Shown: piece after piece, positions 4,823-61,607 of the stretch | How the letters are laid out: each line of letters opens with the position of its first letter | Position numbering within the stretch: the first letter of the stretch is position 1 | Assembly: GCA_964022195.1 (NCBI GenBank) | Contig: CAXIAS010000003.1 | Span: 13,574 to 77,573 of the forward strand | Source of the DNA: an uncultured Roseobacteraceae bacterium | Lineage (GTDB): Bacteria; Pseudomonadota; Alphaproteobacteria; Rhodobacterales; Rhodobacteraceae | Length of the DNA: 64,000 nucleotides | Direction: 5' to 3' | Notes under the pieces: model-generated | Seen by the model: the letters and a program-made list of their open reading frames with translations, nothing else | Told to the model about the DNA's origin: nothing | Database searches by the model: none | Translations under genes and position numbers: made by a program

Positions 4823-5283
4823 CCAGCCTGCCCCGCACCCAGCACATCGTTGCCTCAGGCGTGATCGCGCTGATCGGTGTCACTGTTGCCTACGTCAGCT
4901 TTACCCAAGAACCGGCTGACGCATTCATCTTTCCAAGGCTGATATCGTCAGTGTTCGCCGTGCTGGCTGTCTGGACGTTCGGCAAGGCGATACTGGGCCG
5001 CACCAAAGTAGGCCCCGGCCTGTCGGGCGAGGCAGTGCGCAACATGCTGCCCGGTTTGATCGTCACGCTGGTCTATGTCTATTGGGCCGCCAAAGGGTTG
5101 GGGTTTTATACCGCGACCACCATCGCGTTTTTCATCTTACTATCGCTCTATGATCCGGCACCGCACAGTGCACCTAAGACGTGGATCAAACGGGCGCTCA
5201 TCACCGCTGGTTTTATGGCGGTAATTTACGGTCTGTTTGCGCAACTACTCTATGTATTTACACCGCGAGAGATCTTTTTCTGA
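4819..5283 (+). CDS. tctB: TTT small permease, TctB family
   Basis: ATG 4819 overlaps the tctA stop (ATGA). It is a 154-aa 4-TM protein (MTSLPRTQHIVASGVIALIGV...). Confidence 0.8.
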   Translation: MTSLPRTQHIVASGVIALIGVTVAYVSFTQEPADAFIFPRLISSVFAVLAVWTFGKAILGRTKVGPGLSGEAVRNMLPGLIVTLVYVYWAAKGLGFYTATTIAFFILLSLYDPAPHSAPKTWIKRALITAGFMAVIYGLFAQLLYVFTPREIFF

Positions 5284-44123: not shown

Positions 44124-44216
44124 GCCGGCAGTTGAGGCGCGGGCGCGATAGTTGTCAATGACATTGGGCTTGTGAAAACGGGTTTTCAAAACCTTGGCAG
44201 CGCGGTAACCGAAGGG

Positions 44217-45269
44217 ATGACCATGCTTGATCAATATGCACAGGCCGTCGCCAACGGCCAACTGACCCGGGACGCGGCCCAATTGCACGCGTTGCCACAG
44301 CTGGAACGGGTGCGGGCTGAATTGGCCGCTCCGGTCAAGTCGGGGTTCTTTCGCCGCGCCCCTGAACCGGTCATAGGGGTGTATATGTGGGGCGGCGTCG
44401 GGCGCGGCAAATCCATGCTGATGGATATGTTGTTCGACGCAGTTGATGTTCCCAAACAGCGCAGCCACTTTCATGCGTTTATGCAATGGGTCCACACACG
44501 GATGGACGCGGCCCGCAAAACCGGAGTAGATGACGCAATCGCGCCTGTTGCGGCGGAACTGGCGGCAGACGTTCGGCTTCTGGCCTTTGATGAAATGCAG
44601 ATCAGCGACATCGCAGATGCGATGATCGTCGGACGCCTGTTCGAGGCGCTTTTTGCGGCGGGAGTCACTGTGGTGACCACATCCAACCGTCCCCCGGCAG
44701 ACCTATACAAAGACGGGCTGAACCGTGCGTTGTTCCTGCCGTTCATTGATTTGCTATCGGATCGAATGGTTATTCATGAACTGGTTAGTGACCAAGATTA
44801 CCGTCAGGGGCGGCTTGCCGGATCGCCCAGCTACTTTACTCCCAACGACGCAGCCGCGCGCGGCCAGATCGATACGGTGTGGCAGGGGCTGACTGAGGGG
44901 CAGGACGCGCCGCTGACTTTGACCGTCAAAGGCCGGCAGGTCGTTTTGCCGCGGTTCTACAACGGGGCCGCGCGTGTGCCATTCTTTGACCTGTGCGGCA
45001 AGCCGCTGGGGGCCGCCGACTATCTGGCGCTGGCTCGCACAGTACGGGTTCTGGTGCTAGAGGACATCCCGCGCCTGTCGCGCAGTAATTTCAACGAAGC
45101 CAAACGCTTTGTCACACTGATCGACGCCCTGTATGAGGCCAAGGTCCAGCTGATCTGCTCTGCAGCCGCGGCGCCTGAAATGCTATACCTCGAAGGCGAG
45201 GGCACGTTCGAATTCGAACGCACGGCCAGCCGTTTGCGGGAAATGCAGTCGGATGGCTGGGGCCGTTGA
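44217..45269 (+). CDS. zapE: AFG1-like ATPase / cell division protein ZapE
   Basis: ORF trimmed to ATG 44217. It has the Walker A GGVGRGKSMLMD and AFG1-family blocks. Confidence 0.88.
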   Translation: MTMLDQYAQAVANGQLTRDAAQLHALPQLERVRAELAAPVKSGFFRRAPEPVIGVYMWGGVGRGKSMLMDMLFDAVDVPKQRSHFHAFMQWVHTRMDAARKTGVDDAIAPVAAELAADVRLLAFDEMQISDIADAMIVGRLFEALFAAGVTVVTTSNRPPADLYKDGLNRALFLPFIDLLSDRMVIHELVSDQDYRQGRLAGSPSYFTPNDAAARGQIDTVWQGLTEGQDAPLTLTVKGRQVVLPRFYNGAARVPFFDLCGKPLGAADYLALARTVRVLVLEDIPRLSRSNFNEAKRFVTLIDALYEAKVQLICSAAAAPEMLYLEGEGTFEFERTASRLREMQSDGWGR

Positions 45270-46133
45270 CTAGATCGTAGGGATCGACAAACGCTGACCG
45301 ACGCGGATGGTGTCGGGGCTGGACAGGAATTGACGGTTCGCCTGATAGATCAGGTCGTATTTGTTGACGTCGCCATAGAATTTCACTGCAATTGCCCCAA
45401 GGCTGTCACCGCGACTGACGGTGTAGAACCTGTATTGCTCGGTTTCGGTGGCGCGTTGAACCACGCGGACCTCTACGCCAGTGCCATCCCCGGTCGGGAC
45501 GTCGGGCACCGCAGGGGCAGCCCCACCTGCCGCAATTGTGGCTTGGGTTACGATTGATGACAGCAACACGGCCGTATCCACCCGCCCGTCAGAGGTCACC
45601 AGCAAACGCGGCACCGAGATGTCGCCTGCACTGGCGGCTTCGTTGATGATCGTGTCGATATAGGCGTCGGATTTGCCCTCTTTCAACGCACGCACCACCA
45701 ACAGCTCAAGCGGGCTTTCGGCGGCAGGAGTAGCCCCCGCCCCATTGATGCGTTCGCCCGTGATTGCGCCGATATTGGACAAAACACCCGTGGTCATCTG
45801 GCGCATCGGGTCGTCTTTGATCGCATTGGGGTTGGGTTCAACTGTCAGCCCCAAACCCGCCAGCACGTTGGCCGCTGTCTGATCCATCGTGCTGTCATCG
45901 GTTTGCACGGCCGTGGCAGGGGCGGTGTTGCGTTCAGGGGCCTGCACGACACCGGCGACCGCTTGGGTGATTTCTTGCGCAGCTGTCGGCGCAAGGATGC
46001 TATCAGTCTGGGCACGGGTGACCGCCACCTGCTCGGGGATCGGGACAACCTGCGATGGCGCAGGACGCAGCACAATATACCCGCACAAAACAACGGCAAA
46101 AACGAACAAGGCAGCAACAGAGCGGATCATCAA
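45270..46133 (-). CDS. membrane-anchored LysM peptidoglycan-binding protein (module copy 1)
   Basis: It has an N-terminal TM helix (VAALFVFAVVLCGYIVL), a long Ala/Thr-rich linker and a C-terminal LysM (FYTVSRGDSLGAIAVKFYGDVNKYDLIYQANRQFLSSPDTIRVGQRLSIP). Confidence 0.8.
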   Translation of the reverse strand: MMIRSVAALFVFAVVLCGYIVLRPAPSQVVPIPEQVAVTRAQTDSILAPTAAQEITQAVAGVVQAPERNTAPATAVQTDDSTMDQTAANVLAGLGLTVEPNPNAIKDDPMRQMTTGVLSNIGAITGERINGAGATPAAESPLELLVVRALKEGKSDAYIDTIINEAASAGDISVPRLLVTSDGRVDTAVLLSSIVTQATIAAGGAAPAVPDVPTGDGTGVEVRVVQRATETEQYRFYTVSRGDSLGAIAVKFYGDVNKYDLIYQANRQFLSSPDTIRVGQRLSIPTI

Positions 46134-46143
46134 TAGGGTCCTT

Positions 46144-46776
46144 TTAGGGGGCAGGTTGGGTCAATGTCAGGCCAAGGTGCGCCCAAGCCTGCACCCCGCC
46201 GCGATAATTGTGGATCTTGGACGGCGGATAGCCTGCGGCGATCAAATGTTTGATTGCGCGGGTGCCTTGCTCGTCCCAAGGGCCGTTGGCGTAAACAACA
46301 AGCGCGCGGGCGGCCGAGAAATCCAGCGTCCCCCCATCGCCACTGGCGCCCAAGGCGCGCAGGATGTCGGTTTGATATGGATTGTCAGCAGCAAGTGCCG
46401 CAAAGGGCACGTTGACCGCCGCGGGCAACGTGCCCTTGGCAAACCAATCGGGCAGTCGGGCGTCGATTAGCAGACCGTTACCTGCCGCCACCGGACCGGC
46501 AAGAAAGTCCAACAGCTCAAGCTCGGCCACTGGGGTCACGCCTTCTGCGACGATCATCGGCTGGATGCAAAAGTCCGGACAAGGGCGGCTGGTACGTGCT
46601 AATTCGCCCGTTAGGACGGCGGCCGTGTCCTGATCCCTTTGCACGGTAAAGCTTTGACCATTTACGGCAAATGTCATCTGGGACTGATCAGGGCGTAAGG
46701 CGACGTCTTGGGCGTGAACTACGGGGCCAAAAAGACCGACCACGACGGCCGCCGATATTCCCAACTTTTGTGTCAT
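46144..46776 (-). CDS. periplasmic rhodanese-homology domain protein lacking the catalytic Cys (module copy 1)
   Basis: It has a signal peptide ending VHA-QD, a CPDFC pair and a rhodanese-like pattern (LLIDARLPDWFAKGTLPAAVNVP ... VVYANGPWDEQG ... YRGGVQAW). Confidence 0.72.
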   Translation of the reverse strand: MTQKLGISAAVVVGLFGPVVHAQDVALRPDQSQMTFAVNGQSFTVQRDQDTAAVLTGELARTSRPCPDFCIQPMIVAEGVTPVAELELLDFLAGPVAAGNGLLIDARLPDWFAKGTLPAAVNVPFAALAADNPYQTDILRALGASGDGGTLDFSAARALVVYANGPWDEQGTRAIKHLIAAGYPPSKIHNYRGGVQAWAHLGLTLTQPAP

Positions 46777-46853
46777 TCCGTTATCCCCAGCGCCGGATCA
46801 GCAATCGTAGGTGCACACACATCCTAAAGCGGTTGCCGATCTGATTGGATCTA

Positions 46854-46883
46854 GATGTAGTTGAAAACGAATCACCTTGTCAA
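46854..46883 (-). promoter_or_regulatory. promoter-like element TTGACA-18 nt-TACATC with embedded GGTGATTCGTTT motif (upstream of module copy 1)
   Basis: Read on the minus strand: TTGACA aGGTGATTCGTTTtcaac TACATC TAG. It closely parallels the element at 49152..49181. Confidence 0.4.
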
Positions 46884-47032
46884 AGAAGTTATGCATTCCG
46901 CAACACATACCCCCAAAAACAAGAAGACAGGCCTACCGCCTGCCCCCTCGCCCTGCCAAGACGGGCGCAATCCGCCCTTTTTGTCAGGGCGTGATGCTGT
47001 TGGGGGGACTGTGGCGGATTAGTGATTCGGCG

Positions 47033-47671
47033 TCAACGTCTATGATTCGTTTTGCGGCGAACAGGGGCGAATTGCTTGCTAACGGCGGCTGTATTCCGGC
47101 AATCGGGTGTTACCGCATCAAAGGTGGCCACCAGCGGTGTGTCCGGCTCGATCGAACTGTCCTCGATAAACGCGCCATTCAGGCACAAATCCTGCCCGTA
47201 GTCGCCGGTGTTGAACCCGAACCCCGGTGTGCCGCAATTGCTGGCCGACCCATCCGCGTTCCAGCCTTGGCTGGCGGTGCCCGCAAAGCGTGCTCCGGTC
47301 GGGAAACTTAGGCCCGCAGGGTCGAACCGCAAATGCCATGTTGTATCCGCCGCCCGCGCGGAGGCGTCCCATGTGCCTAACAAGGTGCCCTTGTGATAGC
47401 CTGAAATCTTGAAACGGGTTACATCGTCTTGTGTGACGATGGTTTTAAACATTGCGTCGTCCGGCAGGCTCAACCTGCCGGTCATCGTGTAACCGTTGGC
47501 CCCAACCCAGCAAAAATTCAGCTCGGCGGCCTGCACAGGGCCACATAGCGTGAATAGGATGGCAAAGACGCCGACCCTAGACTTCGGGGATAACCAGCCG
47601 CTGACCGATCTGGATTTTATCCGGAGAAGCGACAGTAGACCGATTGGCCTGGAAAATATGTTCAAACGCAT
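47033..47671 (-). CDS. hypothetical Cys-rich secreted protein
   Basis: It has a hydrophobic signal-like core (VGVFAILFTLCGPVQA-AE). The only in-frame starts (ATG 47683/47671, TTG 47665) overlap the last ~30 codons of the upstream LysM gene, so the start is uncertain. Confidence 0.5.
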   Translation of the reverse strand: MRLNIFSRPIGLLSLLRIKSRSVSGWLSPKSRVGVFAILFTLCGPVQAAELNFCWVGANGYTMTGRLSLPDDAMFKTIVTQDDVTRFKISGYHKGTLLGTWDASARAADTTWHLRFDPAGLSFPTGARFAGTASQGWNADGSASNCGTPGFGFNTGDYGQDLCLNGAFIEDSSIEPDTPLVATFDAVTPDCRNTAAVSKQFAPVRRKTNHRR

Positions 47672-48464
47672 TGGTCGAGCCATAGAACTGAAGTGCAATA
47701 TAGGCAAGGCTGTCTCCCGCCTCGACGGTGTAAAAGCGCTGACCGCCAACCAGCTGTGTTTTGGCCGCTGATGCCTCAAATGCGCGACGCCGCATTTCTT
47801 GGGCTGCGGCGATCTCGGCCTCATCACCGTTTTCCAGCGACCGTTGCACCAGATCAAACAATAATGTCTGGCTGTCGATTTCACCGTTCACGGTGGCGAC
47901 GCTGTCAGGCAGGTCAATGGTGCCGTTCGCCGCCGCTTGGGTCAGCAGGTTTTCGATGGATTCCGCAGCACTGGCCGCGTTGTGCGAATTCAATGCAATC
48001 CGTGTGCCATTTCCATCAACCTGCTCGGTGGTCACCGAATAGAGGCCCGCGACAACGCCTTCGGTCAGCATCCGCATTTTGTTGCGGTTTACGATCGCAA
48101 TGGCCTCGGCGATTTTTTCGTCCTGGGTGCGGGTGTCCGCGGTTGCGGCAGGCGCGCGGGCCGCCAGCACAGCGCTGGCCGAAGGGATTCCGCTAGGGGT
48201 CGGGGTAGCGGGTGCTTGGGCAACCGCTGCGATAGCGGGCGCTGTGATTGCCAACAGATCTGGCGTCTGGTTGCGTGTCACTTGCTGCATTTCGGCCAAT
48301 TGCGCAGTCAGGGCGGCAATCGCCTGTGCTTGGCTGTTTTGCTGGCTTTGGGCAAACATAAATGCGCCAACGGCCCCGACCGCAAAGGTCACCGCGCCAA
48401 CCGCAATGATCCAAGGGGCAGCAGAGCCGCGTGATTTTCTGGGCTGAAACGTCTGCTGTGTCAT
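47577..48464 (-). CDS. membrane-anchored LysM peptidoglycan-binding protein (module copy 2)
   Basis: It has an N-terminal TM helix (PWIIAVGAVTFAVGAVGAFMFA), an Ala/Gln-rich linker and a C-terminal LysM (FYTVEAGDSLAYIALQFYGSTNAFEHIFQANRSTVASPDKIQIGQRLVIP). Confidence 0.8.
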   Translation of the reverse strand: MTQQTFQPRKSRGSAAPWIIAVGAVTFAVGAVGAFMFAQSQQNSQAQAIAALTAQLAEMQQVTRNQTPDLLAITAPAIAAVAQAPATPTPSGIPSASAVLAARAPAATADTRTQDEKIAEAIAIVNRNKMRMLTEGVVAGLYSVTTEQVDGNGTRIALNSHNAASAAESIENLLTQAAANGTIDLPDSVATVNGEIDSQTLLFDLVQRSLENGDEAEIAAAQEMRRRAFEASAAKTQLVGGQRFYTVEAGDSLAYIALQFYGSTNAFEHIFQANRSTVASPDKIQIGQRLVIPEV

Positions 48465-49084
48465 GATTTTGCGTCCTCGGTGTTTAGGCCTAGCGCGGTC
48501 CAGACAAGCATGCCGCCGCGGTAATAACTGATTTTCTCGCTCGGGTATCCGGCGGCGAGTAGCGCTGTGATCATCTGGGGCGCGTCCAGCGTGCTGGGGC
48601 CGTCGTCGAATACGACCAAAGGCAGGGCGTCGGTGAAATTCAGCATCCCGTCAAACGACCGTGCGCCAAAGGCCTGCATGATGTCAGGCATATACGGGTT
48701 GTCCGGCCCAACCAGCGCATGTGGCACGTTGACCGAACCTGCGATGAACCCACGGGCGCGGTCGTCGGGCGTTCGCGCATCAATCAATAGCCCGTCGCCC
48801 GACGCGACAGCACTGCCAAGGAAATTGATGACGTCTTGTTCGCCGACTGTGGGTATTGCCCCCGAATACCGAACCGGTGTCAGGCACAAGGGTGCGCAGT
48901 CTTGGGTCGGGTTCAGGAATGCCGCAATGCGGCTTGCGTCCGGTGTGGTTGCCTGTTGGATGTTCTTTTGGATGCCGTTGAACAAAAAGCTGGCGTTTTT
49001 GGCCAGCTCTGTGGATTGAGCGTAGACAGATGTGCCTAGTCCTATAGCGACAGTCAAAACTGCCGCGCTTTTGCGCGATAACAT
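48461..49084 (-). CDS. periplasmic rhodanese-homology domain protein lacking the catalytic Cys (module copy 2)
   Basis: ORF trimmed to ATG 49084. It has a signal peptide ending VYA-QS, a CAPLC pair, LLIDARTPD, VNVP, VVFDDGPS and YRGGMLVW. Its stop overlaps the LysM-2 start by 4 nt. Confidence 0.72.
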   Translation of the reverse strand: MLSRKSAAVLTVAIGLGTSVYAQSTELAKNASFLFNGIQKNIQQATTPDASRIAAFLNPTQDCAPLCLTPVRYSGAIPTVGEQDVINFLGSAVASGDGLLIDARTPDDRARGFIAGSVNVPHALVGPDNPYMPDIMQAFGARSFDGMLNFTDALPLVVFDDGPSTLDAPQMITALLAAGYPSEKISYYRGGMLVWTALGLNTEDAKS

Positions 49085-49151
49085 GCCGATCCCCCAATCG
49101 TATGGCACCATATATTGACAGATATGCTGGTGCTCTTGTTGTCGTGCCCTA

Positions 49152-49181
49152 GATATAGGCAAGAAACGAATCACCCGTAAA
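49152..49181 (-). promoter_or_regulatory. promoter-like element TTTACG-18 nt-TATATC with embedded GGTGATTCGTTT motif (upstream of module copy 2)
   Basis: Read on the minus strand: TTTACG GGTGATTCGTTTcttgcc TATATC TAG. A second motif copy lies 22 nt further upstream (49185..49197). Confidence 0.4.
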
Positions 49182-49211
49182 GCAAAAACGAATCATCGGG
49201 TCGGGAAAGTT

Positions 49212-50486
49212 TTAGGCCGCGTTTTCGCGCAAGACGTGTCCGGCCAAATACAGCGAGCCACAAATCAGGATACGCGCCTGAGTTGATTGGCTTTTTATGG
49301 CATTGATCGCATCGGCAACGTTTTCCGCCACGTTGACTTGCATGCCGACGTCGCGGGCCTCGGCTGCGGTCTGTTTGGCGGGGATTGTGTTGATTTCGTC
49401 AGGGATTGATACCGCGGTCAGGCTGCTGGCGACCTCAGCCAAAGGGGTCAGATATCCGCTGATGTCCTTTGTGTTCAGCATTCCACAGATCAGATGGGTC
49501 GGTTTTTGGGGCTGCTGGCGCAGCGTGTCTGCCAGCGCGCGACCCGCCGCAGGGTTGTGTCCGCCGTCCAGCCACAGTTCGCAGGGGGCGGCCAGATCAA
49601 CCAGTTTTCCGGTCGTCAATTTTTCCATACGGGCGGACCACGTGGCGTTTGTCATGGCCGTTTCGCAGGCGGCGTCGTCTTTGCCCAGCAGGCGCAAAGT
49701 CGCAATAGCCGCGCCTGCATTCATCACCTGATGCGGTCCGCGCAATGCGGGCATTGGCAGGTCCAGCAAGCCGTTTTCATCCTGATAAACAAGTCGGTCA
49801 CGTTCTGTGCTGACGTGCCAATGCTGGCCATAGGCCATCAAGGGCGCGCCAAGGCGGGAGGCGACGGTTTCGATGACGTCCAACGCTTCGTCGTGTTGCG
49901 GGCCAACCACGCAGGGCACACCGCGTTTCATAATGCCCGCCTTTTCACCTGCAATCGCGGCCAATGTGTCCCCGAGGAACTGCTGGTGGTCCAGATCAAT
50001 CGGCGTGATCACAGTCGCGGCAGGTTGGGCCACGACGTTGGTTGCATCCAAACGCCCGCCTAGCCCCGTTTCGAGCAGCGTGTAATCGGCAGGCGTTTCG
50101 GAAAAGGCCAGAATGCCCGCGATCGTTGTAATTTCGAAATAGGTCATCGGGTCCGCGCCATTGGTGACATAGCAACGGTCCAACACTTCGGTCAGCGCGT
50201 CCTCAGTGATCAGATCACCCGCCAGCCGGATACGTTCGTGGAATCGTGCCAAATGCGGGGAGGTATAGGCGTGGACCCTATCGCCAGCGCCCTCTAGGCC
50301 CGCGCGGATCATGGCTTGGGTTGATCCCTTGCCGTTTGTGCCCGCCAGATGAATGACCGGCGGCAGCTTGTCTTGGGGGTTGCCCAGTTTGGCGAGCAGG
50401 GCCCATGTGCGGTCCAGAGTCAGGTCAATGATCTTGGGGTGCAGCGCCATCATACGGGCGAGAATCGCGTCAGAATTTTGGGTCAT
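49212..50486 (-). CDS. folC: bifunctional folylpolyglutamate synthase/dihydrofolate synthase
   Basis: It has a Mur-ligase-type P-loop (HLAGTNGKGST) and FolC blocks. Confidence 0.9.
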   Translation of the reverse strand: MTQNSDAILARMMALHPKIIDLTLDRTWALLAKLGNPQDKLPPVIHLAGTNGKGSTQAMIRAGLEGAGDRVHAYTSPHLARFHERIRLAGDLITEDALTEVLDRCYVTNGADPMTYFEITTIAGILAFSETPADYTLLETGLGGRLDATNVVAQPAATVITPIDLDHQQFLGDTLAAIAGEKAGIMKRGVPCVVGPQHDEALDVIETVASRLGAPLMAYGQHWHVSTERDRLVYQDENGLLDLPMPALRGPHQVMNAGAAIATLRLLGKDDAACETAMTNATWSARMEKLTTGKLVDLAAPCELWLDGGHNPAAGRALADTLRQQPQKPTHLICGMLNTKDISGYLTPLAEVASSLTAVSIPDEINTIPAKQTAAEARDVGMQVNVAENVADAINAIKSQSTQARILICGSLYLAGHVLRENAA

Positions 50487-50875
50487 GTCGGTACGTTTCC
50501 AGTTTTAATGAGGCGCATTAAAATGACGCCGGCGACAATGTCGATCCCTGCACAAAAGGCGGGCCACCATTGTGGACCGGGCGCGCCGAGCCAGATAAGG
50601 CCGGCGTCAAACACGCCATGAGCGATCAGGCCACCTGCGATGATATAGGCGCCTCGCTGAAATCCGGCGACGGCCACAGCGCAAAAGCCCGCAAAGATTG
50701 CGAAATGCACAGTCGCTCCGACGGCATCGCCGTTTTGGGCCGCAAAAACAGGGTAAAAGAACGCAATCGCGGCAAGCAGGACAGCTATGCCGGATCGTTC
50801 GTGCAGCATGCCGCTGCGCCATAGCGCGAACATCGTCCCCGCTCCGGCGGCAGCGCCGATCAGCGCTGCGATCAC
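50483..50875 (-). CDS. hypothetical multi-pass membrane protein
   Basis: The 130-aa product has 4-5 hydrophobic helices. Its GTG start overlaps the accD stop (GTGA), and its stop overlaps the folC start (ATGA). Confidence 0.65.
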
Positions 50876-51798
50876 TTTTGTGGATCCTCTGGCGCCTCAA
50901 CCCCGTCAGAGGCCGCCTCGGGGGCAGGCAGGTCGCCTTTGATCGGGGCGGATTGACCCGTCAGCATGCGAATAATCGTCACCAGCTCGTCCTTGAGGTC
51001 GGTGCGTTTGGTCACGCGGTCCAACATGCCGTGGTCCAGCAGGTATTCGGCGCGCTGGAACCCTTCTGGCAGTTTTTCACCGATGGTTTGTTCGATGACG
51101 CGCGCTCCGGCAAAGCCGATCAGCGCATTGGGTTCTGCGATCTGCACATCACCCAGCATTGCATAAGATGCAGTCACACCCCCAGTGGTGGGGTGGGTCA
51201 GAACGACAATATATGGCAGACCAGCCTCGCGCAGCATTTGCACAGCAATCGTCGTGCGCGGCATTTGCATCAGGCCCAGAATGCCCTCTTGCATTCGTGC
51301 GCCACCAGCCGCCGAAAACAGGATCAGCGGTCGGCCCAGTTCAATCGCGCGTTCAGCGGCGGCGACGATTGCGTTGCCGACATACATCGACATTGATCCA
51401 CCCATAAATGAGAAATCCTGCACCGCGACAACAACGCCTGTGCGACCCATGTCGCCCTCAGCTACCAGCATTGCGTCTTTTTCGCCGGTCTTCTTGCGGG
51501 CGTCTTTGATCCGGTCGGTGTATTTCTTTTGATCGCGGAAATGCAGCGGGTCGGCGACCGGTTCGGGCACGTCGACTTCAATGAAAACACCACCATCGAA
51601 CAGCGATGTCAAACGGTCGCGCGCACCGATCGCCATGTGATGTCCGCAATTGGTGCAGACGTTCAGGTTGTCGGACAATTCGCGGTGAAACAGCATCGTG
51701 CCGCAGTCGGTGCATTTGGTCCACAGGTTCTCGGGCACTTCGCGGCGCGAAAACAGCGAATTGATCGTCGGGCGGACGTAGTTTGTGATCCAGTTCAT
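50872..51798 (-). CDS. accD: acetyl-CoA carboxylase carboxyltransferase subunit beta
   Basis: ORF trimmed to ATG 51798 ([12 protein letters not shown]...). It has the zinc ribbon [26 protein letters not shown]. Confidence 0.92.
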
Positions 51799-51857
51799 GG
51801 GCGCGGCCTCTAGCGTTTGATTGGTTCTGAAATATGACGCTGCGGCAGGAATTGCAA

Positions 51858-52769
51858 TCAGCGTCGAATAGCAACCCGCGCGGCCAGCCACATCACCGCG
51901 ATCATCATCAAAGACACGACCAGTTCAATCATCGTCGGCAGGGTGAAAAACGACGCGAGCGAATAGTCATAGGCATAGGGGTCTTGGTAGGGATACAAGA
52001 ACAGCATCAGGCCGGTCGCGGGCCAGTCTTGGATCCCGACATAGGTTAGGGCAAACAGGTTATTGGACACATGCAGGCCCACTGCCGCCCCGATTGTTCC
52101 GGTGCGGGCGGTCAAATCCGCACAGGCCAGCCCAAGGCACGTGGCCCAAATCGTATAAAACATCCCGTCGGACGGCCCCCAGCCGTTGAAAAAATGGCAC
52201 GCGCCAAACAGGGCAGATGGCTAGACAAGCCAGACCCATCTGCTCTTGGATATGGCGCCCAGTTGTTGCTGTAGATATCCGCGAAACAGCAGCTCTTCGG
52301 TTCCGGCTTGGATCACGATGACAACGACCGCAAATGGCAGACCAATCAGCCAAACGGGTAGGGGGGCGATATAGGCCAGCTCTGCGACATTGACCCACGG
52401 CGGTAAAACCACTTGGACCAGTAAAACCAGCGCCACCGCCTTGGCGCAGAGCCAAGCATCGACAACCGCTGTGGCTGGCGACACCCCGACGAGCGACCAG
52501 AACCCGCGCCCGTGGACCCGTTTGATTACCAAAACCATACCGATTGCCGATATGCCGAAACTGGCGAATTGCGCCAACACCGACATCGGGGTCGTGCCTT
52601 GAAAAAACGCCTCGACCATTGCTTTGTTCGGGATCAGGCCGACCATCAGCAGCGGGCCGAATATGATCAGCGCTTCGCAGATTGCAAATACCCAAATCAC
52701 CTGCCCTAGGGTGTGGCCCCCCCGCGCAGGTCTGGTGAATTCCTGCATCGGTGCATAAGGGTCAGACAT
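51858..52769 (-). pseudogene. CPBP-family (CAAX/Abi-like) intramembrane metalloprotease gene interrupted by one in-frame TAG (52223..52221)
   Basis: ORFs 52221..52838 and 51858..52163 are in the same frame (both start coordinates are 2 mod 3). Read through, the sequence is ...SKSRWVWLV*PSALFGACHFFNGWGPSDGMFYTIW.... Motifs lie on both sides of the stop: TEELLFRGY upstream, FGACH and HVSNN downstream. Confidence 0.7.
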
Positions 52770-60851: not shown

Positions 60852-61607
60852 ATGGCCCGATTTTACGACTTTCTTGCGCCTAGGAACTGGATTGCTGTCC
60901 TATATCGGACGGCATTCACAATTCTACTGGCCTTTGGCGGTTTGGTCGCGTTTGCGCATTTCAGCGGTGGTGTCCGTCAGTCCCTGACCTACCATTTCTT
61001 CGAGGCGCTTTTTGTTGGCGGTCCGCTTATTTTCGGGGGTTTTGCATCGGGAATGTATCAATACCGGTTGCAAAAACGGCTGTCACTTTTGTCGCGCAAG
61101 GACGGGCTGACGGGGCTAAACAACCGGCGGACGTTCATGGATCTTGCCAATCAGCGGCTTGAACATGTTGGTCGCGGCGTACTGTTCTTGCTGGACGCCG
61201 ACCATTTCAAACGAATCAATGACAACTATGGACACAGCGTCGGGGATGTCTGCCTCGAGGAAATCGCGCATCGTCTGAAATGGAACATGCGCACCAATGA
61301 TGTCGCGGGCCGGATCGGCGGCGAGGAATTTGCAATCTATTTTGCAGGCGCGACCATCGAACAGGCCCGTGTGATTGCAGGTCGTATCGGACAGCCGATC
61401 ACCTACCAGACGGGCAACATGGATGAATGCAAAACGCTGACCCTGTCGATGGGCGCGGTGCAGGTATCATCAGACATTTCTTTGCATGAATTGCTGATCA
61501 GGGCCGATGACGCCCTTTACAAGGCCAAGCGCACGGGGCGCGCAAAACTGGTCATCTGGGAAGAGGGACTGGAATCAATGGTCGAGGTCGATCAGTCCGT
61601 TGCCTAA
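60852..61607 (+). CDS. diguanylate cyclase (GGEEF) with small N-terminal membrane domain
   Basis: ORF trimmed to ATG 60852. It has 2-3 TM helices, then DGLTGLNNRR, DADHFKRINDNYGH, and the I-site RTND five residues before GGEEF. Confidence 0.85.
   Translation: MARFYDFLAPRNWIAVLYRTAFTILLAFGGLVAFAHFSGGVRQSLTYHFFEALFVGGPLIFGGFASGMYQYRLQKRLSLLSRKDGLTGLNNRRTFMDLANQRLEHVGRGVLFLLDADHFKRINDNYGHSVGDVCLEEIAHRLKWNMRTNDVAGRIGGEEFAIYFAGATIEQARVIAGRIGQPITYQTGNMDECKTLTLSMGAVQVSSDISLHELLIRADDALYKAKRTGRAKLVIWEEGLESMVEVDQSVA

What the first reader, a model, noticed from the sequence alone, without database searches (positions are those of the whole stretch)
45270..49084. Two diverged tandem copies of an uncharacterised envelope module: Cys-less periplasmic rhodanese-homology protein + membrane-anchored LysM protein
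Minus-strand order is as follows: rhodanese-like 2 (49084-48461), LysM 2 (48464-47577, 4-nt overlap), a Cys-rich secreted ORF (47671-47033), rhodanese-like 1 (46776-46144), then LysM 1 (46133-45270, 10-nt gap).

Both rhodanese-like proteins have a signal peptide (VHA-QD / VYA-QS) and a conserved C-x3-C pair (CPDFC / CAPLC). They also share the blocks GLLIDAR-PD, VNVP, DNPY, AAGYP and YRGG. My by-eye ungapped alignment of the last ~125 residues gives roughly 45% identity, so the duplication is old and both copies have been kept. At the position where catalytic rhodaneses carry the active-site Cys, copy 1 has Ala (VVYANGPW) and copy 2 has Asp (VVFDDGPS). Neither should therefore be a sulfurtransferase.

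Both partners share one architecture: an N-terminal TM anchor, a long low-complexity linker and a single C-terminal LysM. I cannot name a characterised system with this pairing.

There is also a positional analogy. In E. coli the gene after accD-folC is dedD, a bitopic division protein with a C-terminal peptidoglycan-binding SPOR domain. Here folC is followed by a bitopic protein with a C-terminal peptidoglycan-binding LysM domain, plus a periplasmic partner.
Basis: partly seen in the sequence, partly recalled or inferred. Interest (0 to 1): 0.75.

Follow-up and report, generated by a model that had tools for sequence, protein, structure and literature searches.

The report
Duplicated periplasmic rhodanese-like plus LysM cassette
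Two old tandem copies of a conserved, uncharacterised gene pair (an exported rhodanese-like protein without its catalytic cysteine, plus a membrane-anchored LysM cell-wall-binding protein) follow folC, and their promoters carry the DNA-methylation sites typical of cell-cycle-controlled genes in this bacterial group.

Summary
On the minus strand, folC is followed by Rhd2, LysM2, a secreted four-Cys ORF, Rhd1 and LysM1. Pfam Rhodanese and LysM hits pass their cutoffs. The paralogues are 37% and 33% identical.

The Rhd-then-LysM pair is a real module. In 81 species loci, 72 of 92 untruncated Rhd genes have a C-terminal-LysM gene directly downstream. This holds in Rhodobacterales after folC, and in Gammaproteobacteria, Limnohabitans and Nitratifractor without folC.

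Four corrections apply:
- The missing catalytic Cys is lineage-specific. Of 95 family ORFs, 55 carry a C-x4-C active-site loop. Only the N-terminal C-x3-C is universal (94/94).
- The LysM partner is not mainly linker. Residues ~77-287 are confidently folded, and only the Kbp-type LysM matches any solved structure.
- DedD shows no homology, and the folC link is confined to Rhodobacterales.
- LysM1 probably starts at 46130.

Two new features emerged:
- The promoters carry clusters of TGATTCG, the GcrA/CcrM consensus, in a window about five-fold depleted of GANTC.
- The leader of the first Rhd gene has a hairpin with an invariant CUG(C/U)CA loop and covarying stem.

No named family or paper covers the pair. 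The biochemical function remains unknown.

The parts
49164..49195 (-). Two direct TGATTCGTTT boxes (49186-49195 and 49164-49173), 22 bp apart, upstream of Rhd2. Each contains a GANTC CcrM site in the exact GcrA consensus TGATTCG. The second box lies in the spacer of a promoter-like pair, TTTACG (49176-49181) N18 TATATC (49152-49157).
   Evidence: The consensus was read from PMC4647560. The layout is conserved in 27 of 30 related promoters. The hexamers were found by eye and conservation; the strict sigma-70 scan found none.
49105..49133 (-). 5' leader hairpin of the Rhd2 unit: outer stem GCACCA/TGGTGC, inner stem AUAU/AUAU, loop CUGUCA (49116-49121). It lies about 20 nt upstream of the UUGGGGGA Shine-Dalgarno-like stretch.
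   Evidence: The MFE fold is. Across 28 genera/species the loop is invariant and the five closing pairs covary: score 0.612 against 0.223 for shuffles (0/500 reach it) and at most 0.238 for slid registers. There are 19 such hairpins at -110..-20 of Rhd starts against 0.45 expected. Rfam gives no match.
48461..49084 (-). Rhd2: an exported rhodanese-homology protein of 207 aa. It has a signal peptide ending VYA-QS, the C-x3-C motif CAPLC, and Asp at the catalytic-Cys position.
   Evidence: It belongs to a monophyletic 'copy 2' clade shared with Loktanella, Yoonia and Octadecabacter (NJ tree).
47577..48464 (-). LysM2: a bitopic membrane protein of 295 aa. It has a positively charged N-tail, one TM helix, and a periplasmic part ending in a LysM domain. 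Its start overlaps the Rhd2 stop (ATGA).
47033..47671 (-). Conserved secreted four-Cys protein ('CysORF'; mature part about 150 aa, begins AELNFCW). It has no Pfam or NCBIfam family. Its start codon is uncertain, and the stated ORF overlaps the 3' end of LysM2.
   Evidence: It sits between folC and the Rhd gene even in genomes with a single Rhd-LysM pair, so it is a syntenic neighbour rather than a core part of the pair.
47023..47052 (+). Two further TGATTCG sites (47023-47029 and 47043-47049, the latter within the 10-mer 47043-47052), in the opposite orientation. They straddle the CysORF stop codon.
46925..46941 (-). Terminator-like stem-loop with a T-run after CysORF. It separates the Rhd2-LysM2-CysORF unit from the Rhd1-LysM1 unit.
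   Evidence: The same sequence is present in the Loktanella locus L002.
46854..46883 (-). Promoter-like region of Rhd1: TTGACA (46878-46883), spacer with TGATTCGTTT (46865-46874), then TACATC (46854-46859).
   Evidence: It has the same geometry as the Rhd2 promoter. No CUGYCA hairpin lies downstream.
46144..46776 (-). Rhd1: an exported rhodanese-homology protein of 210 aa. It has a signal peptide ending VHA-QD, the C-x3-C motif CPDFC, and Ala at the catalytic-Cys position.
   Evidence: The AF2 model has pLDDT 87.8. Foldseek matches only single rhodanese domains.
45270..46130 (-). LysM1: a bitopic membrane protein of 286 aa if it starts at ATG 46130. TM is at residues 2-22, a disordered stretch at 23-76, a folded conserved periplasmic region at 77-235, and a C-terminal Kbp-type LysM. 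Its stop abuts the stop of the convergent zapE gene (44172-45269, +).
   Evidence: The AF2 model has pLDDT 84.7. Foldseek matches only the last ~55 aa, to E. coli Kbp at 46-49% identity.

Best explanation
This is a conserved periplasmic two-gene cassette that was duplicated long ago.

Gene 1 encodes a Sec-exported protein of about 20 kDa. It consists of a short N-terminal beta-hairpin, an invariant S-R-P-C-P-x-F-C loop, and one rhodanese-homology domain. Gene 2 is adjacent or translationally coupled. It encodes an N-in bitopic inner-membrane protein whose folded periplasmic part ends in a Kbp-type LysM domain.

Most likely working model (inferred): the LysM protein sits between the inner membrane and the peptidoglycan and holds or positions the soluble rhodanese-like protein there. 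In most lineages the rhodanese loop carries a C-x4-C dithiol, which suggests thiol or persulfide chemistry. In this lineage both paralogues have lost it and keep only the C-x3-C. Here the rhodanese domain therefore cannot be a classical sulfurtransferase, and it acts as a binding or scaffolding (pseudo-enzyme) module.

In Rhodobacterales the cassette is transcribed from promoters packed with TGATTCG sites, which are CcrM methylation sites in the GcrA consensus. Its expression is therefore probably tied to the cell cycle. The first unit also has a structured leader hairpin, which implies post-transcriptional control.

Shown: the gene anatomy, domain content, conservation of the pair, Cys states, promoter sites and hairpin covariation. 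Inferred: export and topology, peptidoglycan binding, physical pairing, GcrA dependence, and any envelope or cell-cycle role.
For: - Domains and paralogy.
- Pair conservation: a LysM-ending ORF lies directly downstream of 72 of 92 untruncated family genes in 81 species loci. These include Gammaproteobacteria, Limnohabitans and Nitratifractor, where every other neighbour differs.
- Partner architecture: 64 of 72 partners have a strongly hydrophobic N-terminal segment, and the LysM is always at the extreme C-terminus.
- Coupling: a 4-nt overlap in pair 2 and a 13-nt gap in pair 1.
- Cys states: N-terminal C-x3-C in 94/94. Active-site states are CC 55, none 31, first Cys only 6, second Cys only 3.
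- Partner independence from Cys state: the partner is conserved whichever state Rhd has.
- Structure: AF2 and Foldseek results.
- Promoter: GANTC is 50 observed against 239±15 expected in the window, and 5 of the 11 YGAKTCK sites lie in this locus. There are 97 GATTCG hexamers against 4.8 expected upstream of first Rhd genes. Sites occur in 27 of 30 promoters. Both window promoters have a site in the -35/-10 spacer. This matches the published TGATTCG consensus and the peak of site positions around -20 in GcrA-activated promoters (PMC4647560).
- Hairpin.
Against: - No direct evidence of a physical complex exists. No Rhd-LysM fusion was seen among the best 150 of 3275 profile hits.
- About a fifth of family genes have no LysM gene directly downstream. 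Examples are the Thiodiazotropha and Sedimenticolaceae loci and Octadecabacter copy 2.
- The closest solved LysM is from Kbp, which I recall (not checked here) as a cytoplasmic potassium sensor. Peptidoglycan binding is therefore an assumption.
- GcrA dependence is transferred from Caulobacter. The presence of gcrA and ccrM in this genome was not checked, and another GANTC-reading factor could be responsible.
- The Gemmobacter/Tabrizicola relatives keep the hairpin but have no GANTC sites.
- At least one roseobacter (D. shibae) appears to lack the cassette at the folC locus, so it is not universally required there.
Confidence: 0.5

Rival explanations
1. The LysM proteins are functional analogues of E. 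coli DedD: bitopic septal peptidoglycan-binding division proteins kept next to folC. The rhodanese-like proteins would be their periplasmic partners at the septum.
For: - Gene order accD-folC-(bitopic protein with a C-terminal peptidoglycan-binding domain) occurs in both organisms.
- zapE is the convergent neighbour.
- The GcrA/CcrM-type promoter fits cell-cycle-timed expression.
Against: - There is no similarity to DedD (E 5.1), and Pfam finds no SPOR domain.
- The folC link exists only in Rhodobacterales. The pair is equally conserved elsewhere next to unrelated genes.
- In D. shibae the genes listed after accD-folC are not annotated as rhodanese or LysM proteins.
- The GcrA regulon in Caulobacter covers about 200 genes of many functions, so the promoter does not point specifically to division.
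Confidence: 0.15
2. The cassette is a periplasmic thiol, persulfide or metal-handling system. The invariant C-x3-C, together with the C-x4-C active-site loop in most lineages, would carry out redox, sulfur-relay or Cu(I)-type chemistry on an envelope substrate. The window copies would remain active through the C-x3-C alone.
For: - C-x3-C is present in 94/94 family ORFs, even where the active-site Cys are lost.
- The two active-site Cys are usually kept together or lost together: CC 55, none 31, one only 9.
- CC-type members show weak tail similarity to TIGR03865 (PQQ_CXXCW) and to the rhodanese/DsbD-like selenoprotein TsoB.
- Many hosts outside Rhodobacterales are assigned to groups I know as sulfur oxidisers, such as Chromatiales, Thiotrichales, Thiodiazotropha and Nitratifractor (organism names).
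Against: - All NCBIfam scores are far below their cutoffs.
- Campylobacterota-like fusion proteins of the family have lost the C-x3-C altogether (TSRPTPPFF).
- A C-x3-C in the oxidising periplasm may simply be a structural disulfide. That loop has low model confidence (pLDDT about 62-80).
- No redox partner gene is consistently linked.
Confidence: 0.2
3. The rhodanese-like protein is a periplasmic ligand or anion sensor whose signal is passed to a membrane or wall-bound partner.
For: - Family members are fused to PilJ-type periplasmic sensor repeats (P0285, P0336).
- In Nitratifractor the order is Rhd, then a 4xPilJ protein, then LysM, Rhd and an OmpA-like protein.
- Rhodanese active-site loops are anion-binding cradles, and Cys-less rhodanese domains are known as non-catalytic modules (general knowledge).
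Against: - The LysM partners have only a few cytoplasmic residues and no output domain.
- No kinase or regulator gene is consistently linked.
Confidence: 0.1
4. The adjacency is incidental. Two unrelated envelope genes happen to be neighbours and were duplicated together.
For: No fusion and no direct interaction data exist.
Against: - The same gene order recurs in four bacterial classes or phyla while all other neighbours change.
- Start and stop codons overlap.
- A shared conserved promoter and leader lies upstream of the first gene only.
- Both genes were retained after an old duplication.
Confidence: 0.03

Closest known systems
Single-domain rhodanese sulfurtransferases (E. coli PspE and GlpE, human TSTD1, YgaP rhodanese domain)
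   Same: They share the rhodanese fold (Foldseek E 4e-6 to 1e-4, target TM about 0.7) and pass the Pfam cutoff. They also share the D-x-R and Y-R-G-G-x-x-x-W framework motifs. By my recollection PspE is also periplasmic.
   Different: The window copies have no catalytic Cys (Ala, Asp). They have an extra N-terminal ~60 residues with an invariant C-x3-C, and an insertion with an invariant N-P-Y. Relatives that keep the Cys have an unusual C-N-G-P-W-C loop. NCBIfam PspE scores are about 12-22 bits against cutoffs of 102-126.
TIGR03865, PQQ-dependent catabolism-associated CXXCW motif protein (a rhodanese-like family with two Cys at the active-site loop)
   Same: It has two Cys in the active-site loop. 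Weak similarity covers the C-terminal third for CC-type relatives (11.9-44 bits). That it is secreted is my recollection, not checked here.
   Different: All scores are far below the 128-bit cutoff, and it is not detected for the window proteins. Cys spacing differs (C-x4-C against C-x2-C-W). The loci examined show no PQQ or alcohol-dehydrogenase genes. That family's function is, as far as I know, also not established.
E. coli Kbp/YgaU (BON + LysM potassium-binding protein, NF008399)
   Same: The LysM subtype matches: 46-49% identity and rmsd about 1 Å over 52-61 residues. It is the best NCBIfam hit (63 bits).
   Different: The score is below the 134-bit cutoff. Foldseek finds no BON domain match. 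The proteins here are membrane-anchored with a different folded domain of about 150 residues that has no PDB match. Kbp is cytoplasmic by my recollection.
E. coli DedD (bitopic division protein with a C-terminal SPOR domain, encoded after folC)
   Same: It shares the position after accD-folC, the N-terminal TM, and a C-terminal domain of a peptidoglycan-binding type.
   Different: It has SPOR rather than LysM, shows no sequence similarity and has no rhodanese partner. The positional link is not conserved outside Rhodobacterales.
GcrA/CcrM-dependent promoters of Caulobacter crescentus (e.g. mipZ, cckA, ctrA P1)
   Same: The promoters here carry the exact consensus TGATTCG (YGAKTCK). A site lies in the -35/-10 spacer, near where GcrA-regulon sites peak around -20. 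The genome shows strong GANTC avoidance.
   Different: There are up to six sites per promoter, whereas the mipZ promoter described in that paper has two high-ranked sites. GcrA control has not been tested in Rhodobacterales, and the downstream genes are not known GcrA targets.

Membership tests
Rhodanese homology domain (Pfam PF00581) | Profile match above the gathering score, and the rhodanese alpha/beta fold | tested here: met
   Scores are 37.5 and 33.8 bits against a 22.2 cutoff. The AF2 model matches solved rhodanese domains.
Catalytic rhodanese / thiosulfate sulfurtransferase | Active-site Cys at the start of the loop following the central beta-strand | tested here: not met
   The position is Ala163 in Rhd1 and Asp in Rhd2, by alignment to TSTD1 and to family members that carry Cys there. 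The only Cys in either protein are the N-terminal C-x3-C pair.
PspE (NF007627 / TIGR02981) | Whole-protein score above the NCBIfam cutoff | tested here: not met
   It is not listed for the window proteins. Relatives score 12-22 bits against cutoffs of 102-126.
TIGR03865 PQQ_CXXCW | Score of at least 128 bits, and the CXXCW motif | tested here: not met
   It is not listed for the window proteins. The best relative scores 44 bits. The motif in relatives is C-N-G-P-W-C.
LysM domain (Pfam PF01476) | Profile match above the gathering score, and the beta-alpha-alpha-beta fold | tested here: met
   Scores are 35.8 and 32.0 bits against a 20.9 cutoff. The model's last ~55 residues superpose on Kbp LysM at about 1 Å.
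LysM domain (function) | Binding to peptidoglycan glycan strands | not testable with these tools
   This is inferred only from domain family and predicted periplasmic location.
Kbp/YgaU (NF008399) | Score of at least 134 bits, and BON + LysM architecture | tested here: not met
   Scores are 63.5 and 62.7 bits. Foldseek aligns only the LysM part.
DedD / SPOR division proteins | C-terminal SPOR domain, and septal localisation | tested here: not met
   There is no SPOR hit in Pfam, and BLASTP against E. coli DedD gives E 5.1. Localisation is not testable here.
GcrA/CcrM-regulated promoter | High-ranked YGAKTCK methylation site within about 40 bp of the transcription start | tested here: met
   TGATTCG lies in the -35/-10 spacer of both promoter-like regions, and this is conserved in 27 of 30 related promoters. 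The transcription start is inferred from the hexamers, not measured.
GcrA/CcrM-regulated promoter | Transcription depends on GcrA and on adenine methylation | not testable with these tools
   This needs depletion or reporter experiments. The five-fold GANTC depletion shows only that GANTC is under selection in this genome.
Known RNA families (Rfam 15) | Covariance-model match to the leader | tested here: not met
   No match was found in 49085-49200 or 46777-46900 at E up to 10.

The most novel reading that the evidence does not exclude
The Rhd-LysM cassette is an undescribed, widely distributed periplasmic system. A membrane- and wall-anchored LysM protein would partner a rhodanese-family protein whose chemistry (C-x3-C, with or without C-x4-C) acts on the cell envelope. 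In roseobacters it would have become a cell-cycle-timed (GcrA/CcrM) function with pseudo-enzyme paralogues, controlled additionally by a new cis-regulatory RNA hairpin with an invariant CUG(C/U)CA loop.
Probability: 0.3. Interest if true: 0.7.

Novelty: new variant of a known kind. Interest (0 to 1): 0.55.

Why it matters
Roseobacter-group bacteria are abundant in the sea, and their envelope growth and division machinery is poorly mapped compared with Caulobacter or E. coli. This work yields three concrete, testable leads:
- A conserved gene pair of unknown function is retained across several bacterial classes. It shows a natural series in which the rhodanese active-site cysteines are present, half-present or absent while the partner stays. 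That makes it a good system for asking what Cys-less rhodanese domains do in the periplasm.
- Its promoter is one of the densest clusters of GcrA-consensus methylation sites I could find in these loci. It offers a handle on whether the GcrA/CcrM epigenetic circuit operates in Rhodobacterales.
- A small structured leader with covariation support is absent from Rfam.

If the module proves to be a cell-cycle-timed peptidoglycan-associated factor, it would add a new component to alphaproteobacterial envelope biology.

Tried and rejected
- **First genome scan:** It was repeated with closer sequences.
- **Source contig:** looking up the window's own Rhd1 contig found nothing on record.
- **D. shibae vesicle protein:** the most abundant vesicle protein in D. 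shibae is a LysM protein (PMC7901474). I rejected it as an orthologue. It is 42 kDa and sits next to the SurE-type 5'-nucleotidase and Pcm methyltransferase genes, which in my experience marks the NlpD/DipM type. The D. shibae accD-folC locus is followed by other genes.
- **R. sphaeroides envelope mutants:** the LysM protein in that paper is a LysM-peptidase, which is irrelevant here.
- **CenR as box reader:** the published CenR motif is TGA-N8-TGA (PMC9275681). It fits only loosely and the paper mentions no rhodanese or LysM target, so I dropped it in favour of the exact GcrA consensus.
- **Iron-Rhodo-box/IscR:** the papers give no text consensus and list no rhodanese, so I did not pursue this.
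- **RNAalifold:** it returned no structure on the MAFFT leader alignment because the 3' arms were misaligned. I replaced it with per-sequence folds and a register-defined pair count.
- **Other hairpin copies:** other CUGCCA hairpins in the window lie inside coding regions and look like chance.
- **tRNA mimic idea:** the loop equals the anticodon-loop sequence seen in a conserved hairpin 6 kb downstream in several loci, which I take to be a tRNA-Gly(GCC) gene but did not verify. The central base varies C/U in the leaders, so I do not build on it.
- **Foldseek on the LysM1 middle domain:** it found nothing.
- **Distant-lineage neighbours:** Pfam scans of flanking genes in distant lineages gave no common theme.
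- **Fifth TGATTCGTTT copy:** the copy at 61209 is inside a coding region.

Full report
**What is there**

On the minus strand the gene order is accD (50872-51891), a small membrane ORF (50483-50875) and folC (49212-50486). The finding follows: Rhd2 (48461-49084), LysM2 (47577-48464), a Cys-rich ORF (47033-~47671), Rhd1 (46144-46776) and LysM1 (45270-46130/46133). zapE converges on the plus strand (44172-45269).

Both Rhd proteins pass the Pfam Rhodanese cutoff and both partners pass the LysM cutoff. Rhd1 and Rhd2 are 37% identical over 204 residues (E 1e-41). LysM1 and LysM2 are 33% identical over 191 residues (E 2e-26).

The Rhd2 stop overlaps the LysM2 start (ATGA). LysM1 most likely starts at ATG 46130, 13 nt after Rhd1. 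Each Rhd protein contains only two Cys, the C-x3-C pair. The catalytic-Cys column is Ala in Rhd1 and Asp in Rhd2.

**Is the pairing real?**

A protein search found 239 relatives of Rhd1. The named ones come mostly from Rhodobacterales and carry only the labels 'rhodanese-like domain-containing protein' or 'rhodanese-related sulfurtransferase'.

A scan of one genome per species found 558 loci. I examined the best 80 plus one complete Octadecabacter locus. ORF calling, BLASTP and a LysM HMM gave the following:
- A gene ending in a LysM domain lies directly downstream of 72 of 92 untruncated family genes.
- In Rhodobacterales the context is accD-folC-(CysORF)-Rhd-LysM with zapE convergent.
- In Chromatiales, Thiotrichales, Methylococcales, Limnohabitans and Nitratifractor the pair is present while every other neighbour differs.
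- Sixty-four of 72 partners have a strongly hydrophobic N-terminal segment, and the LysM is always at the very C-terminus.
- Exceptions include the Thiodiazotropha and Sedimenticolaceae loci. In Octadecabacter, copy 2 is followed directly by copy 1 and a single LysM gene.

A profile search of 1.84 billion representative proteins found 204 clusters at E ≤ 1e-30. The best 150 include Rhd-Rhd, Sel1-Rhd and Rhd-PilJ-repeat fusions but no Rhd-LysM fusion. The pair is therefore a conserved operon-like unit, but a physical complex is inferred, not shown.

**The duplication**

A neighbour-joining tree places window Rhd2 with the second copies of Loktanella, Yoonia, Octadecabacter and Pseudooctadecabacter in one clade. 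This clade is separate from the Rhd1-type genes.

LysM2 survives only in the Loktanella/Yoonia group. Planktotalea also has two Rhd-LysM pairs; its extra Rhd copies sit beside the Rhd2 clade in the tree. Some relatives (L004, L007) seem to keep a remnant of the LysM2 3' end upstream of the Cys-rich ORF. The tree has no bootstrap support values.

Across 95 family ORFs the N-terminal motif (T-S-R-P-C-P-P-F-C-I-Q-P) is present in 94 of 94 readable sequences. The active-site loop is F-C-N-G-P-W-C-D-Q-S in 55. It has only the first Cys in 6, only the second in 3, and neither in 31.

The Cys-less state is thus a derived feature of the Loktanella/Yoonia/Octadecabacter lineage and of copy 2. The LysM partner is retained whatever the Cys state.

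CC-type members show faint similarity to TIGR03865 (PQQ-associated CXXCW protein) and to the rhodanese/DsbD-like selenoprotein TsoB. All scores are far below the cutoffs, and no NCBIfam model claims the family.

The AF2 model of Rhd1 (pLDDT 87.8) shows a beta-hairpin, a lower-confidence C-x3-C loop and one rhodanese domain. Foldseek finds only rhodanese domains.

**The LysM partner**

The alignment and AF2 model (pLDDT 84.7) show a TM helix at residues 2-22 and a disordered stretch at 23-76. A conserved, confidently folded region follows from about residue 77 to 287, with pLDDT above 90 from about residue 140.

Only the last ~55 residues match any solved structure, namely the LysM of E. coli Kbp at 46-49% identity. 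The 'long low-complexity linker' therefore describes only part of the protein. The remainder is a domain without a known fold match. Peptidoglycan binding is an inference from domain type and predicted topology.

**The Cys-rich ORF**

It belongs to a real family restricted to Rhodobacterales. The family has a signal peptide and four conserved Cys, and no Pfam or NCBIfam family. It lies between folC and the Rhd gene even in genomes with one pair, so it is a syntenic neighbour rather than a core part of the pair.

In this genome no canonical start codon lies next to the signal peptide. The nearest in-frame starts lie 80-95 nt inside LysM2, and the public annotation starts at an internal Met (139 aa). 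A terminator-like hairpin follows it (46925-46941).

**Regulatory region (new)**

The 10-mer TGATTCGTTT occurs five times in the 64-kb window against 0.23 expected, and four of the five are in this locus. Its core, TGATTCG, contains a GANTC site. It is exactly the consensus reported for GcrA binding at CcrM-methylated sites in Caulobacter (YGAKTCK). In GcrA-activated promoters such sites cluster around -20 and between +2 and +30 (PMC4647560).

The supporting counts are:
- The window has 50 GANTC sites against 239±15 expected from a first-order Markov model.
- Five of its 11 YGAKTCK sites lie here.
- Both Rhd genes have a TGATTCG in the spacer of a promoter-like hexamer pair.
- Across the loci, 97 GATTCG hexamers fall in the 160 nt upstream of the first Rhd gene against 4.8 expected.
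- Twenty-seven of 30 promoters carry one to six GANTC sites, nearly all of the YGAKTCK type. The exceptions are the Gemmobacter/Tabrizicola group.

Comparative work reports ccrM/gcrA as a co-occurring gene pair and places Rhodobacterales in clusters that keep most Caulobacter cell-cycle factors (PMC2877005). I did not verify the two genes in this genome. I infer cell-cycle-timed, GcrA/CcrM-type transcription. This has not been tested in Rhodobacterales.

**Leader hairpin (new)**

Between the -10-like element and the UUGGGGGA ribosome-binding stretch of the first Rhd gene lies a hairpin whose six-base loop is CUGCCA (CUGUCA in the window, 49116-49121). Its stems differ between genera.

I counted the five positions on either side of the loop, so the register is fixed by the loop and not by any fold. 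On that count 72% of cells pair, against 47% in shuffles and 22-43% in slid registers. All five pairs show double-sided changes. The covariation score is 0.612 against 0.223 for shuffles (0 of 500 reach it) and at most 0.238 when slid.

Nineteen such hairpins lie at -110 to -20 of Rhd starts against 0.45 expected. Rfam has no match. An outer stem appears in most single-sequence folds but was not tested statistically. The Rhd1 leader in this lineage lacks the hairpin. What binds the loop is unknown.

**Comparison with known systems**

The proteins are members of the rhodanese-homology and LysM superfamilies. They fail every narrower family tested: catalytic rhodanese, PspE, TIGR03865, Kbp and DedD/SPOR.

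The E. coli order accD-folC-dedD is real. The resemblance stops at position and general topology. Four literature searches for the pairing found nothing relevant.

**Verdict**

This is a genuine, conserved and so far uncharacterised periplasmic gene pair, duplicated here, with pseudo-enzyme-like rhodanese copies. The most likely working model is a wall- and membrane-anchored LysM protein that positions a soluble rhodanese-family partner. In roseobacters the pair would be expressed under GcrA/CcrM-type cell-cycle control with an added RNA leader. The biochemical activity is unknown. The DedD analogy is not supported, although a cell-cycle link is now plausible on independent grounds.

Noticed in passing
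window 49152-49197, 46854-46883, 47023-47052; loci L001-L059 upstream of the first Rhd gene: Clusters of TGATTCG / CGAATCA sites overlap the promoter-like hexamers of the Rhd genes. These are GANTC in the exact GcrA consensus YGAKTCK. There are up to six per promoter, in direct or inverted arrangement with 11- or 22-bp phasing. GANTC is about five-fold depleted in the window as a whole.
   Followed up: yes
window 49105-49133 (-); equivalent positions in 28 loci (alignments A7, A8): A leader hairpin has an invariant CUG(C/U)CA loop and covarying stems, and is not in Rfam. The loop sequence equals the loop of a conserved hairpin seen 6 kb downstream in several loci (e.g. L040 12388), which I take to be the anticodon loop of a tRNA-Gly(GCC) gene but did not verify. 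The meaning is unknown.
   Followed up: partly
window 47563-47671: The Cys-rich ORF has no canonical start codon next to its signal peptide. The only in-frame ATG or TTG candidates lie 80-95 nt inside LysM2, and the public annotation uses an internal Met that removes the signal peptide and the first conserved Cys. This could reflect a non-canonical start, translational coupling or decay.
   Followed up: partly
L068 5072-10904 (Nitratifractor MAG); proteins P0285, P0336: In Campylobacterota the family sits in a different cluster: Rhd, a 4xPilJ-domain protein, LysM, a second Rhd, then an OmpA-family protein with TSP3 repeats, with a divergently oriented CAP-domain gene upstream. Single proteins also fuse Rhd to PilJ-type repeats and have lost the C-x3-C.
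   Followed up: partly
L049 3572-5839, and L051, L053, L057 (Chromatiales and related Gammaproteobacteria): A 630-755-aa protein with an N-terminal AAA ATPase domain, a TM segment, a bacterial SH3 domain and TPR repeats lies directly upstream of the Rhd-LysM pair in four gammaproteobacterial loci.
   Followed up: no
window 50483-50875 (-): A 130-aa hydrophobic ORF is wedged between accD and folC with 4-nt overlaps at both ends. It has no family hit but is conserved in several relatives (L003, L005, L007, L047, L048, L059).
   Followed up: no
window 45269/45270: The convergent zapE and LysM1 genes end on adjacent bases, leaving no intergenic space. In Octadecabacter temperatus the two ends overlap by 4 nt (L001 9532-9535).
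   Followed up: no
L004 ~4942-5100 and L007 ~4950-5100: Relatives with only one Rhd-LysM pair seem to keep, upstream of the Cys-rich ORF, sequence resembling the 3' end of LysM2. This suggests secondary loss of the second pair by deletion.
   Followed up: no
window 50046-50098 (-): There is a weak Rfam hit to DUF3800-IX RNA inside folC (24.4 bits against a gathering score of 36.8, E 0.13). It is most likely chance.
   Followed up: no
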